A stretch of DNA of 61,340 nucleotides, taken from an uncultured Gammaproteobacteria bacterium (lineage in GTDB: Bacteria; Patescibacteriota; Patescibacteriia; SG8-24). The position numbers and the translations under genes are program-made. The stretch covers positions 82,909 through 144,248 of the forward strand of contig CAYOXM010000001.1 of assembly GCA_964407925.1 (NCBI GenBank). Reading direction: 5' to 3'. The notes beneath the pieces were generated by a model. The model was not told where the DNA came from and made no database searches. It saw only the letters and a program-made list of their open reading frames with translations. The number at the start of each line of letters is the position of its first letter. The first letter of the stretch is position 1. Below are positions 7,774 through 53,595 of the stretch, one piece after another.

Positions 7774-7830
7774 TTGGGCCTATAAGGCGGTCCGTCTGAC
7801 GACCCACCATCTCATGTTTGGGCGGGGAAA

Positions 7831-8112
7831 TCAAGGTTGTCGCATCCTTTCGGGCGCGTCCTGTGCTAAATAGTGTTGCATTTGTTTTTTGAGAAATTTT
7901 CGACCAGAGCCACTTTTAAGAAACCTTTCTCGGCCGAGGGCATCCATTTTGTGGGAATAGGCCTCAAAATAAATCAGTTTAAATGGTCGACGAGCCGAGG
8001 TCGACTCGTTTTTACCACAATTATGATCCTGAAGGCGTCGTCGTATATCGGTCGTGTAACCGATGTACCACCCGCCATCTTTCAAACTTTGCAACACGTA
8101 TACGGCATGCAT
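7831..8112 (-). CDS. Small stand-alone GIY-YIG nuclease
   Basis: VYVLQS...WYIGYT, RRLQDHN, RRPFKLIYFE and RERFLKSG motifs. Visibly more AT-rich than its flanks. Confidence 0.9.
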   Translation of the reverse strand: MHAVYVLQSLKDGGWYIGYTTDIRRRLQDHNCGKNESTSARRPFKLIYFEAYSHKMDALGRERFLKSGSGRKFLKKQMQHYLAQDAPERMRQP

Positions 8113-8149: not shown

Positions 8150-8181
8150 ATCAACGGCTGCGCTCCCGTTACCGCGTAAAA

Positions 8182-8300
8182 TGGTGGCCGTGCCACGTGA
8201 ACGCCAGCTCCATCGCGGAAGGTGGCCCCGTAAAAGCGTTGCCGTTGGCAACGCTCACGGGGCACGTAAAAACGCCAGACGAGCTGGCGTTTTTACGTGG
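8182..8300 (-). repeat. CCA-anchored structured repeat, family A copy E1 (after tmRNA)
   Basis: Starts at the tmRNA CCA. First 77 nt match 51627..51703 at 76 positions. Perfect 16-bp hairpin, second bulged hairpin, ends GGCCACCA. Confidence 0.9.
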
Positions 8301-8689
8301 TGGAGATGGGGAGAATTGAACTCCCGTCTGGCGAGTCTTCCCACGACACGTCTACAAGCGTATCCCGTTTGGTCTCTCGGCCCGCCGGTGCGAAACGGGA
8401 CAAATCCGGCGAACCAACCTCAGGTGCAATTCGGCCGTGCCGTCAGAGGCCCGGCAGGCTCTGCCTGATATATGACACCCGTACCCCGCCTATCAGGCGT
8501 CGGCGGGACGGATGGGCTCAGGCGTTACGCGAGAGCCGGAGCGAACGAAGGGGAGAACGCTTTCGCGAACGCACCCTTCACCCGCGCGAGCAAGTTTGCA
8601 CTTGTTCATTTGTCCGTGGGTTTACGAGACAACGGACGTCCTCGGCTTGCATGTCATGAAACGAGCTCCCATCGATGCCGGTCATCCCC
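8298..8689 (-). ncRNA. ssrA: tmRNA
   Basis: 5' GGGGATG pairs with 3' CATCTCC-A-CCA; T-arm GGGAG-TTCAATT-CTCCC. Tag ORF 8599..8525 encodes ANLLARVKGAFAKAFSPSFAPALA*. Directly downstream of smpB. Confidence 0.95.
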
Positions 8690-51542: not shown

Positions 51543-51629
51543 GCCGGAGTGGCGAAACTGGCAGACGCACACGACTCAAAATCGTGCGGGGGCAACCCCA
51601 TGAGGGTTCAAGTCCCTCCTCCGGCACCA
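51543..51629 (+). tRNA. tRNA-Leu(CAA)
   Basis: GCCGGAG/CTCCGGC + A-CCA; anticodon arm CACGA-CTCAAAA-TCGTG; long variable arm GGGG-GCAA-CCCC. Confidence 0.96.
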
Positions 51630-51744
51630 CGTAAAAACGCCAGCTCGTCTGGCGTTTTTACGTGCCCCGTGAGCGTTGCCGACGGCAACGCTTTTACGGG
51701 GCCTCCTCCCGCCCTGCGCCGGCGTTCACGTGGCGCGGCCACCA
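51627..51744 (+). repeat. CCA-anchored structured repeat, family A copy E2 (after tRNA-Leu)
   Basis: 76/77 identity with E1 over the two-hairpin part; ends GGCCACCA. An extra GGCTCACGTGGCGCAGCC motif sits at 51783-51800. Confidence 0.9.
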
Positions 51745-51831
51745 GCTTCAGTCCAAACCTTTTACATGACCACAACCGGCGCGGCTCACGTGGCGCAGCC
51801 CGTAAAAAAAGACGCCTCCGGTGAGGAAGCG

Positions 51832-52305
51832 TCAGAGGGCAGCGAGCAGGGAGCGGACCCACTCGACGGCGCCGAGGTAAACGGCGACCCAGAACGCGGA
51901 GCTGATGAGGGTGGTGACGAAGGCGTACATCCACGCCTTCTGCTCGCGCAACCCGAGGAAGCGGATGACCAGGGCCCCGAAAAACGGACCGACGAGAAAG
52001 TTCGCCGCGAGCGCCAGAACGAACGGCCCGCGCTTGCGGAACCACGGCCAGACGCCGCCCTGGAACCTGCCCTCGTCGAGGGTGAGCTTCTTCGCCCATT
52101 CCGCGGCGAACAACGCCTTGCGTTGGGGCGGCAGCAGGACGATCAGCACGAGCCCGGTGAGCAGCATGCCGAGACCGAAGTGCGCGGGCAGCGCCCACCA
52201 GCCGAGAAGCCTGACGCCGGCGATGATCACGCCGGAAAGCGCGAAATTCGCAATGACGGCGCCTACGCCGCCGAGCGCGTAGCCGATTTTTGCGAGATGT
52301 TTCAA
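51832..52305 (-). CDS. Small multi-pass membrane protein, function unknown
   Basis: 157 aa, about 4 TM helices; AGGAGG RBS before TTG. Confidence 0.7.
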   Translation of the reverse strand: MKHLAKIGYALGGVGAVIANFALSGVIIAGVRLLGWWALPAHFGLGMLLTGLVLIVLLPPQRKALFAAEWAKKLTLDEGRFQGGVWPWFRKRGPFVLALAANFLVGPFFGALVIRFLGLREQKAWMYAFVTTLISSAFWVAVYLGAVEWVRSLLAAL

Positions 52306-53407: not shown

Positions 53408-53482
53408 GGCGAGGTAGCTCAGTGGTAGAGCAAAGGACTCATAAGCCTTGGGTCGAGGGTTCGATCCCCTCCCTCGCTACCA
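53408..53482 (+). tRNA. tRNA-Met(CAT), probably elongator (Ile2 not excluded)
   Basis: GGCGAGG/CCTCGCT + A-CCA; anticodon loop CTCATAA with an A31-G39 mismatch; lacks the three G-C pairs and 1:72 mismatch of initiator tRNA. Confidence 0.9.
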
Positions 53483-53595
53483 CGTAAAAAGCCTGCGCGA
53501 AAGCGGAGGCTTTTTACGTGCCACGTGAGGCTCGCCGCGCGAGCCTTTTACGTGGCTACCTTGAGATAGCGCACAGGCTTCACGCGGCACAGCCA
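53480..53595 (+). repeat. CCA-anchored structured repeat, family A copy E3 (diverged; after tRNA-Met)
   Basis: CACGTAAAAAGCC...GGCTTTTTACGTG, GCCACGTGAGGCTCGC...GCGAGCCTTTTACGTGGC and GGCTTCACGCGGCACAGCCA: same order and similar length (116 nt) as E1/E2. Confidence 0.8.

What the first reader, a model, noticed from the sequence alone, without database searches (positions are those of the whole stretch)
8182..8300. E1 and E2 end in a second ACCA: target-site repeat or tRNA 3'-end mimic
Seen: tmRNA ends CC-ACCA and tRNA-Leu ends GC-ACCA. Both appended elements terminate in GGCC-ACCA, after which E1/E2 similarity stops; E3 ends in GCCA. The element is therefore bracketed by ACCA...ACCA. Inference: a 4-bp target duplication or tetranucleotide target as in HUH-type insertion, or a decoy CCA end.
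Basis: partly seen in the sequence, partly recalled or inferred. Interest (0 to 1): 0.6.

Follow-up and report, generated by a model that had tools for sequence, protein, structure and literature searches.

The report
CCA-to-CCA hairpin cassette behind tRNA genes
The second ACCA is real, but it is shared only by two sister copies of a roughly 113-base hairpin cassette that starts right after the CCA end of tRNA and tmRNA genes in these tiny bacteria and normally ends in GCCA, so it is not a four-base insertion scar.

Summary
E1 (window 8182-8297, minus strand) and E2 (51630-51744, plus strand) both start right after the encoded ACCA of tmRNA and tRNA-Leu. Both end GGCC-ACCA, and their similarity stops there.

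ACCA does not define the family. In 83 full-length copies (own genome, relatives, metagenomes) the conserved end is ...CACGTGGC-NNN-GCC plus A. That A is present in 75% of copies, and the next three bases are at background. GCC-ACCA occurs in 3 of 83 copies: E1, E2 and one unrelated copy. About 0.8 are expected by chance.

What does hold across the family is a CCA-to-GCCA frame. Every copy starts after a CCA. In tandem arrays the next unit starts exactly after the previous unit's GCCA.

Copies resemble other copies in the same genome rather than copies at the same tRNA in other genomes. Copy number is patchy (0 to 21 or more per genome). Of 29 relatives examined, only this genome has a full unit at tmRNA. 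The cassette therefore spreads or recombines at the DNA level.

No HUH transposase, reverse transcriptase or resolvase tracks it. A small GIY-YIG nuclease gene follows 12 of 83 copies, E1 included. Six copies are followed by 11-19-nt repeats of their tRNA's tail.

A tRNA-end decoy is not supported by the fold, but it was not tested.

This scan had already noted the cassette family, on this window and in other genomes.

The parts
8298..8689 (-). tmRNA gene; its 3' end is ...CTCCACCA
   Evidence: Rfam RF00023, 135.6 bits, full length
8185..8297 (-). E1, one full cassette unit (113 nt) running from the base after the tmRNA CCA to the conserved GCCA
   Evidence: Sequence; unit profile match to model positions 1-116, 91.5 bits; alignment A1
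8263..8299 (-). H1: a 16-bp hairpin whose foot pairs the CA of the tmRNA CCA. It has an A5/U5 tract and a GC core CGCCAG/CUGGCG, and reads as terminator-like on both strands
   Evidence: MFE fold; 98% paired with 6 covarying pairs
8226..8262 (-). H2: a variable hairpin with a conserved foot CCNCGUG(A/G)...UUUACGNGG and a conserved G.U wobble
   Evidence: Fold; 13 covarying pairs; G.U present in 78/82 copies
8209..8225 (-). Pyrimidine-rich spacer, poorly conserved (9/16 identical between E1 and E2)
   Evidence: Alignment A2
8193..8208 (-). seg3: GCUGGCGUUCACGUGG. It is complementary to the tRNA CCA plus the 5' arm of H1, giving an alternative long-range helix P1
   Evidence: 92-98% paired with 5-6 covarying pairs
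8185..8194 (-). Conserved unit terminus GGC-NNN-GCCA
   Evidence: GGC and GCC are near-invariant and the following A is present in 62/83 copies; no covariation in the small UGGC/GCCA hairpin
8182..8184 (-). Extra CCA triplet, which makes the end read GGCC-ACCA. Private to E1, E2 and one metagenomic copy
   Evidence: 3/83 copies
51543..51629 (+). tRNA-Leu(CAA) with encoded CCA
   Evidence: ARAGORN and Rfam
51630..51741 (+). E2, a full cassette unit ending GGCCA; the extra CCA lies at 51742-51744
51757..51801 (+). 5'-truncated second unit (model positions 63-115: H2 3' foot, spacer, seg3, GCAGCC). It is followed directly by the terminator of the convergent gene (51811-51833)
   Evidence: nhmmer E = 0.028; sequence; terminator scan
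53483..53595 (+). E3, a full unit behind tRNA-Met (53408-53482), ending GGCACAGCCA
7831..8112 (-). 93-aa GIY-YIG nuclease-domain gene 69 nt downstream of E1 on the same strand, with a promoter-like site at 8149-8121
   Evidence: Pfam PF01541, E = 3.7e-15; promoter scan; the same arrangement follows 12/83 units

Best explanation
The second ACCA is the normal GCCA end of a roughly 113-nt hairpin cassette plus one extra CCA triplet that only the E1/E2 lineage carries. The triplet is most simply a 3-nt slip (GCCA to GCCACCA) or a junction microhomology made when the unit was copied between the tmRNA and tRNA-Leu loci.

The cassette is a DNA-level repeat family of ultra-small (Patescibacteria) genomes. 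Its left edge is always the last A of a CCA, belonging to a tRNA, a tmRNA, a tRNA-tail fragment or a preceding unit. Its first hairpin (H1) takes the place of the rho-independent terminator that abuts the CCA at other tRNA genes of this genome. Its right edge re-creates a GCCA. Further units, plain terminators, or a promoter plus a small GIY-YIG nuclease gene can be stacked behind that GCCA.

Units are copied or recombined among unrelated tRNA 3' ends within a genome, by an enzyme not yet identified.

Shown here: the anatomy, the exact CCA/GCCA phasing, the covariation, the within-genome similarity, the patchy copy number and the lack of a correlated transposase. Inferred: that H1 terminates transcription, that spread is DNA-based, and how the extra CCA arose.
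For: Position and phasing:
- In the own genome there are 8 full units, all abutting a tRNA or tmRNA CCA on the same strand.
- Among 37 units from this genome and its relatives, 5 start exactly after the GCCA of a preceding unit.
- 46 further units came from metagenomes. 35 of them abut an ARAGORN-called tRNA, covering 17 specificities, and 2 are in tandem.
- The end is GCC+A in 62 of 83 copies (p = 6e-17), the next three positions are at background, and ACCA occurs in 3 of 83.

Spread within genomes:
- A two-unit block is shared by two loci of G014. Identity switches on exactly at CCA| and off at GCC(A).
- The nearest neighbour of nearly every unit lies in the same genome at a different tRNA.
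- Copy number ranges from 0 to 21 among 37 genomes of the order.
- In the 29 relatives examined, tmRNA is followed by a different trailer, in most a plain terminator hairpin abutting the CCA. Only this genome has the full unit there.
- E1 and E2 are mosaic: H1-H2 76/77 identical, spacer 9/16, seg3 plus end 25/27. That points to recombination between units rather than a single clean duplication.

Structure:
- H1, H2 and the alternative helix P1 all covary.
Against: - No mobilising enzyme was found. Y1_Tnp, RVT_1 and Resolvase are absent from the richest genome, and every genome has just one Xer-like integrase.
- No same-species empty allele was available, so insertion was never seen directly.
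- In the metagenomic units, helix mismatches favour G.T over A.C on the sense strand (49 against 17 in H1, H2 and the terminal hairpin). A G.U wobble is conserved in 78 of 82 copies. Both fit selection on a transcript as well as on DNA.
- The three-way covariation X/X'/X'' has no settled explanation.
- The consensus terminator scan did not call H1, because its U-tract is paired with the A-tract.
Confidence: 0.55

Rival explanations
1. The ACCA is a shrunken tRNA-tail repeat. Cassettes (a unit with or without a GIY-YIG gene) enter the tRNA 3' end with a duplication of that end, as integrative or homing elements do. In E1 and E2 only the last 4-6 nt (CCACCA and CACCA) remain, fused to the unit.
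For: - Six of 83 units are followed at +16 to +343 nt by an 11-19-nt exact copy of their own tRNA's 3' end ending NCCA. In four of these a plain terminator follows the copy, and in one (L045) a second unit does.
- In L019 the repeat lies just after the GIY-YIG gene, so the unit plus the nuclease gene is bracketed by tRNA-Val tails.
- In L245 the sequence GCC-ACCA is followed at once by an A-tract, as after a real tRNA end.
- The match of the E1 end to the tmRNA tail is 6 nt (CCACCA), and that of E2 to the tRNA-Leu tail is 5 nt.
Against: - In E1 the ACCA lies between the unit and the GIY-YIG gene, not behind the gene, and no tmRNA-tail copy follows the gene.
- What follows the ACCA in E1 and E2 is not a terminator. 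It looks like the 3' part of an older unit.
- A match of 4-6 nt that overlaps the unit's own GCC is within chance.
- 77 of 83 units have no tail repeat within 2.5 kb.
Confidence: 0.2
2. The unit is a co-transcribed functional 3' trailer RNA. H1 and H2 act as tandem terminators or processing platforms. The GCCA is an RNA 3' end made by the same activity that trims the tRNA, giving a CCA-ended small RNA that could act as a decoy or competitor for enzymes that act on CCA ends.
For: - The orientation relative to the tRNA is always the same and the unit always abuts it exactly.
- Covariation is strong.
- The G.U wobble is conserved and mismatches favour G.U on the sense strand.
- Folds are far more stable than shuffled sequences, z = -6 to -7.
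- A CCA-adding enzyme family is encoded in the genome.
- There is a precedent for structured modules whose 5' end defines a tRNA 3' end: the theta ribozymes (PMC10879173).
Against: - H1 looks like a strong terminator placed upstream of the rest of the unit.
- Outside the helix feet there is no conserved single-stranded core.
- The end is not a free NCCA behind an acceptor-like helix.
- No RNase Z equivalog is present.
- The distribution is patchy and units cluster by genome, which is unlike a housekeeping RNA.
- The sense-strand G.T excess could come from transcription-associated deamination rather than selection.
Confidence: 0.2
3. The unit is a non-autonomous IS200/IS605-type (HUH, single-strand) element that inserts 3' of the tetranucleotide ACCA and carries its own ACCA cleavage site.
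For: Insertion always falls 3' of a fixed short motif, and the element's right end repeats that motif. The DNA is hairpin-rich and sequence-variable but structure-conserved.
Against: - Y1_Tnp is absent from G014 (21 units) and present four times in G015 (no units).
- The right end reads GCCA, not ACCA, in nearly all copies.
- There are no matching subterminal hairpins at the two ends. The left hairpin starts at base 1 and the right end has only a 4-bp stem without covariation.
Confidence: 0.03

Closest known systems
Rho-independent terminators that abut the CCA of bacterial tRNA genes
   Same: H1 starts at the base after the CCA and has a GC-rich stem with a U5 tract and a matching upstream A-tract. 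Nearly all other tRNA genes of this genome carry a plain hairpin of this kind in the same place.
   Different: The unit continues for another 75 nt or so: a second covarying hairpin, a distal arm complementary to the 5' arm of H1, and a conserved GCCA end. It is a multi-copy family shared among unrelated tRNAs and it forms arrays.
Theta ribozymes (minimal HDV-like ribozymes next to phage tRNAs; PMC10879173)
   Same: Both are structured modules whose first nucleotide coincides with the tRNA 3' end.
   Different: In theta ribozymes the cleavage site is G1, the fold is HDV-like, and a catalytic C lies in J4/2. Most of the tRNAs they follow lack an encoded CCA. Here position +1 is C in every copy, there is no Rfam ribozyme match and there is no conserved unpaired core.
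IS200/IS605-derived palindromic elements and REP/RAYT repeats
   Same: All are small, gene-less, hairpin-forming, multi-copy intergenic repeats with a fixed short motif at the insertion point.
   Different: No HUH enzyme tracks the copies. The copies are confined to tRNA 3' ends and always co-oriented with the tRNA.
tRNA-3'-end integration with att-type tail repeats, and free-standing GIY-YIG homing-nuclease genes in tRNA clusters
   Same: Six of 83 units are followed by 11-19-nt tRNA-tail repeats, and 12 of 83 by a small GIY-YIG gene.
   Different: Most units have neither feature. The GIY-YIG proteins are about 90 aa, consisting of the catalytic domain only. No integrase gene is linked.
Integron attC sites (comparison from my own knowledge)
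   Same: Sequence is variable while structure is conserved, conserved asymmetric features are present (here AAA opposite C, and a fixed G.U), and units join head to tail at a short fixed junction.
   Different: The units carry no cargo genes, there is no integron integrase, and the junction motif is different.

Membership tests
Transposable element with a 4-bp ACCA target-site duplication | The same 4-bp direct repeat flanks most copies, and it matches the local target | tested here: not met
   GCC-ACCA occurs in 3/83 copies. The distal end reads G-CCA regardless of the discriminator base (A 61, G 13, C 5, T 4). Positions 2-4 after GCC are at background.
Transposable element with a 4-bp ACCA target-site duplication | The empty allele carries a single copy of the repeat with otherwise continuous flanks | not testable with these tools
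   No same-genus genome is held. The tmRNA trailers of 29 relatives are unrelated in sequence.
IS200/IS605-type (HUH Y1) single-strand element or its non-autonomous derivative | A Y1 HUH transposase is present in genomes that carry copies | tested here: not met
   PF01797 gives 0 matches in G014 (at least 21 units, 100% complete) and 4 matches in G015 (0 units).
IS200/IS605-type (HUH Y1) single-strand element or its non-autonomous derivative | Similar subterminal imperfect hairpins at both ends, with cleavage tetranucleotides at a short distance from them | tested here: not met
   The left hairpin starts at base 1. The right end has only a 4-bp UGGC/GCCA stem with no covariation, and the two are not alike.
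tRNA-like structure or tRNA 3'-end mimic (decoy) | An acceptor-like helix formed by the 5' and 3' ends, with a free single-stranded NCCA tail | tested here: not met
   In the MFE and centroid folds the terminal A of GCCA pairs inside a 4-5-bp hairpin, and E1 is left with only a 2-nt overhang.
tRNA-like structure or tRNA 3'-end mimic (decoy) | A match to tRNA, TLS or tmRNA covariance models | tested here: not met
   At E <= 10 Rfam gives only the tmRNA end itself and a sub-threshold TLS-PK2 match on the opposite strand (17 bits against 42).
tRNA-like structure or tRNA 3'-end mimic (decoy) | An RNA 3' end at the distal CCA in vivo | not testable with these tools
   No transcript data are available.
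Intrinsic (rho-independent) terminator | A GC-rich stem-loop followed directly by a U-tract at the end of the gene | tested here: met
   H1 has a core stem of 7-8 bp followed by U5, and the feature is conserved in alignment A1. The consensus scanner did not list it because the U-tract is paired with the A-tract. Termination itself was not tested.
HDV-like / theta ribozyme | G at +1 (the cleavage site), a nested double pseudoknot with a catalytic C in J4/2, and a match to HDV-type models | tested here: not met
   Position +1 is C in 36/36 aligned copies and no ribozyme family appears at E <= 10. The defining features are taken from PMC10879173. The double-pseudoknot topology was not tested.
tRNA-end integrative or homing cassette with att-type tail repeats | A direct repeat of the tRNA 3' end (10 nt or more) at the far side of the inserted DNA | tested here: inconclusive
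   Met in 6/83 units (11-19 nt). E1 and E2 have only 4-6 nt, which is within chance.

The most novel reading that the evidence does not exclude
The cassette is a new kind of mobile module that finds the exact 3' end of tRNA-type genes by base pairing. Its distal arm (X''-TTCACGTGG) is complementary to the tRNA's CCA plus the first arm of the terminator hairpin. This pairing covaries in every subfamily. Insertion re-creates a CCA end so that units can stack. The small GIY-YIG nucleases encoded just behind 14% of the copies would supply the cut in trans.
Probability: 0.12. Interest if true: 0.8.

Novelty: new variant of a known kind. Interest (0 to 1): 0.45.

Why it matters
The ACCA itself is a minor, lineage-private detail. 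The rule behind it matters more: an apparently undescribed, structure-conserved cassette that always begins at a CCA and re-creates one at its own end. That rule shows that the 3' ends of tRNA genes in these minimal genomes are modular docking points. Terminators, nuclease genes and further cassettes accumulate there. If the distal arm really guides insertion by pairing with the tRNA end, this would be a new targeting principle for small mobile DNA. If the unit works as RNA, it would bear on how bacteria without RNase Z make tRNA 3' ends.

Tried and rejected
- **Rfam.** No family was found at gathering score or at E <= 10.
- **Literature.** Two full-text searches found no description of the element.
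- **16-mer scan of the genome collection.** It was too unspecific, giving mostly chance matches in GC-rich genomes. The metagenome scan with a two-anchor pattern worked.
- **Consensus terminator scan.** It does not list H1 because it counts the paired A/U tract as stem.
- **tRNA-likeness of seg3 read as a T-arm plus acceptor strand.** I tried the registers by hand and the stems do not pair, so I rejected it.
- **X'' as a target-site duplication of the 3' arm of H1.**
  - X'' differs from X' in a fixed way in every copy inspected: TTT is replaced by C.
  - The required 'empty' hairpin type (CGTAAAAA-X-loop-X'-TTCACGTGGC) does not occur in any held sequence.
- **The original terminator preserved behind the unit.** Only about 15 of 83 units have a terminator-like hairpin within 12 nt of the end.
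- **GIY-YIG gene count against unit count per genome.** The correlation is weak: rho 0.30 (p = 0.07) across the order and 0.55 within the family. It is not corrected for kinship, and there are clear counter-examples such as G031 with 9 genes and 0 units.
- **H2-type hairpins as free-standing repeats in this genome.** There are none outside the units.

Full report
**Observation**

Rfam places tmRNA at 8298-8689 on the minus strand, and ARAGORN places tRNA-Leu(CAA) at 51543-51629 and tRNA-Met at 53408-53482 on the plus strand. Read on their own strands, tmRNA ends ...CATCTCCACCA and tRNA-Leu ends ...CTCCGGCACCA.

From the next base on, both loci carry CGTAAAAACGCCAGCTCGTCTGGCGTTTTTACGTG CCCCGTGAGCGTTGCC(A/G)ACGGCAACGCTTTTACGGGG CC, then a spacer, then GC(T/C)GGCGTTCACGTGGC(A/G)CGGCCACCA. 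In a three-way alignment with the nearest third copy (behind tRNA-Arg-GCG), similarity between E1 and E2 ends exactly after ACCA. The third copy ends GCGACC|TGCG, with no ACCA. E3 ends GGCACAGCCA.

**Is ACCA a feature of the family?**

The window belongs to a 1.40-Mb, 64% GC genome of 45 contigs. Earlier notes of this scan assign it to Patescibacteria, class ABY1. I did not check that assignment.

- A profile search finds 8 full-length units in this genome. All directly abut the CCA of a tRNA or of tmRNA and lie on the same strand. H1-only versions sit at five more tRNAs.
- BLASTN finds the unit in 19 of 41 genomes searched (this genome plus 40 relatives). One of them, G014, has at least 21 copies.
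- A two-anchor pattern scan of metagenome contigs added 46 unique full-length units. 35 of these abut an ARAGORN-called tRNA, covering 17 specificities.

Pooling the 83 units gives a conserved end of ...T(T/C)CACG(T/C)GGC-N(2-3)-GCC. The next base is A in 62 of 83 (p = 6e-17 against 30%). Positions 2-4 after GCC are at background (C 28%, C 14%, A 31%). GCC-ACCA occurs three times: in E1, in E2 and in one unrelated metagenomic copy (L245). About 0.8 such cases are expected by chance.

E1 and E2 are sister copies, so their ACCA is a single event. The distal end reads G-CCA whatever the discriminator base of the tRNA in front.

**What does hold: a CCA-to-GCCA frame**

Every unit begins at the base after a CCA. 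In 5 of the 37 units from relatives and 2 of the 46 metagenomic units, that CCA is the GCCA of a preceding unit (...CACGTGGCGCRGCCA|CGTAAAAA...). Units therefore form head-to-tail arrays of two or three, usually of different subtypes.

Two loci of G014 share a two-unit block. Identity begins exactly at CCA|: upstream lies tRNA-Leu in one locus and another unit in the other. Identity ends at GCC(A). The unit is thus a discrete quantum with CCA at its left edge and its own CCA at the right.

**Anatomy and structure**

- **H1** is a 16-bp hairpin whose foot pairs the CA of the tRNA's CCA (CCACGU.../...ACGUG). It has an A5/U5 tract and a GC core X/X'.
- **H2** has a conserved foot (CCNCGUG(A/G) ... 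UUUACGN'GG) around a freely varying inner stem.
- **A variable spacer** follows H2.
- **seg3** (X''-UUCACGUGG) is complementary to CCACGUAAAAA-X. This gives an alternative long-range helix, P1, which includes the tRNA's CCA.
- X'' equals X' with TTT replaced by C in every copy I inspected.

On a 36-sequence alignment the pair counts are as follows.

| Helix | Cells paired | Pairs changed on both sides |
|---|---|---|
| H1 | 98% | 6 |
| H2 | 81-90% | 13 |
| P1 | 88-98% | 7 |
| Terminal UGGC/GCCA stem | 84% | 0 |

Minimum-energy folds choose H1 plus H2 on either strand, with z between -5 and -7.

A G.U wobble in the H2 foot is kept in 78 of 82 units. In the metagenomic units, mismatches in H1, H2 and the terminal stem favour G.T over A.C by 49 to 17. 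In X:X'' the ratio is the reverse, 9 to 16. The sense-strand bias fits an RNA or a folded sense DNA strand, but it could also come from transcription-associated deamination. I cannot decide between these.

**Behaviour as a repeat**

- The nearest neighbour of almost every unit is another unit of the same genome at an unrelated tRNA. Examples: G014 Lys/Asp 93%, G014 Leu/Arg 97%, and here tmRNA/Leu 89%.
- Counts per genome in the order range from 0 to 21.
- In the 29 relatives examined, tmRNA is followed by a different trailer, in most a plain terminator hairpin abutting the CCA. Only this genome has the full unit there, and one other has an H1-type hairpin with a partial H2.
- E1 against E2 is mosaic: 76/77 identical in H1-H2, 9/16 in the spacer, 25/27 in seg3 plus the end. 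That points to recombination between units rather than one clean duplication followed by drift.
- 5'-truncated second units that begin at the H2 3' foot recur behind full units. One lies 12 nt behind E2's ACCA (51757-51801), and a possible remnant follows E1.

**Which enzyme?**

| Family | Finding |
|---|---|
| Y1_Tnp (HUH) | Absent from G014, the richest genome; 4 matches in G015, which has no units |
| RVT_1 | Absent from this genome and from G014 |
| Phage_integrase | One Xer-like integrase in G000, G014 and G001; two in G006 and G015 |
| Resolvase | Absent from G014 |
| CCA-adding enzyme family | Present |
| RNase Z equivalog | Absent |

The one positive link is a family of GIY-YIG catalytic-domain genes of about 90 aa. 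A homologue of the gene behind E1 (window 7831-8112, Pfam E = 3.7e-15) sits 12-90 nt (285 nt in one case) downstream of 12 of 83 units, on the same strand. These come from several genera and from metagenomes. Genome-wide counts correlate only weakly.

**tRNA-tail repeats**

Six of 83 units are followed at +16 to +343 nt by an exact 11-19-nt copy of their own tRNA's 3' end ending NCCA. In four of them a plain terminator follows the copy; in L045 a second unit follows it. In L019 this copy lies just behind the GIY-YIG gene. Real target-type repeats therefore do occur at these sites. The ACCA of E1 and E2 could be a 4-6-nt relic of one, but a match of that length overlapping the unit's own GCC is within chance. 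In E1, moreover, the ACCA lies in front of the nuclease gene, not behind it.

**Comparison with known systems**

- H1 meets the sequence definition of an intrinsic terminator abutting a tRNA CCA, as plain hairpins do at most other tRNAs of this genome.
- Theta ribozymes also start at a tRNA 3' end, but they have G at +1 and an HDV-type fold (PMC10879173). Here +1 is always C, and no ribozyme model matches.
- The HUH model, the 4-bp duplication model and the tRNA-mimic model each fail a defining feature that I tested.
- No paper or Rfam family describing the cassette was found.
- Earlier reports of this scan had already noted the cassette family on this window and in other genomes. What this report adds is the 3'-end rule, the arrays, the enzyme survey, the GIY-YIG linkage and the tail repeats.

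**Verdict**

The flagged ACCA is real but private to one sub-lineage. It is best read as the family's GCCA end plus an extra CCA. The cassette is an apparently undescribed, structured, CCA-framed repeat that moves or recombines among tRNA 3' ends. Its mechanism and any RNA role remain open.

Noticed in passing
window 7831-8112 (-), promoter-like site at 8149-8121 (-): A 93-aa GIY-YIG gene lies directly behind E1. Close homologues sit 12-90 nt (285 nt in one case) behind 12 of 83 cassette units, in several genera and in metagenomes, so [tRNA]-[unit]-[GIY-YIG] is a recurring arrangement.
   Followed up: partly
window 51757-51801 (+) and 8156-8181 (-): Behind E2 lies a 5'-truncated second unit that starts at the H2 3' foot. 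Behind E1 an orphan TTTTACGCGG...GCGCAGCC may be the same kind of remnant. Truncated units starting at the same point recur behind full units in metagenomes (L226, L220, L251, L253).
   Followed up: partly
L019, L031, L014, L045, L289 (downstream of the units): Exact 11-19-nt copies of the tRNA's own 3' end, each followed by a plain terminator or, in L045, by a second unit. In L031 and L045 the copy is part of a pseudo-tRNA 3' half carrying a perfect palindromic hairpin.
   Followed up: partly
G000 contig C1 at about 45.5-64.7 kb, and contig C22 (outside the window): A different multi-copy repeat, ...GGTGATGCAGGGCAAGCCCTGCGGCTACA...GTAGCTGCGCGGCTTGCCGCGCTTCACC..., turned up several times in a loose motif scan.
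   Followed up: no
L068 (G011), L075 (G022), L082 (G015), downstream of tmRNA: In several relatives the tmRNA terminator is followed by a second copy of the tmRNA 3' end (...ATCTCCCCATCTCCACCA) with about 100 nt of structured insert between the two. This resembles an att-type duplication at ssrA.
   Followed up: no
H2 apices of G014 units (L045, L046, L047, L049 and others): Many H2 loops read GCGAAGC or GCGGAGC. From my own knowledge, that heptamer forms an unusually stable mini-hairpin in single-stranded DNA. This is a weak hint that a DNA strand is what folds.
   Followed up: no
window 7795-7809 (+): GACGACCCACCA on the strand opposite the tmRNA matches 11 of 12 bases of the 3' end of this genome's tRNA-Lys genes (GCCGACCCACCA). 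It may be a stray tRNA-tail fragment or it may be chance.
   Followed up: no
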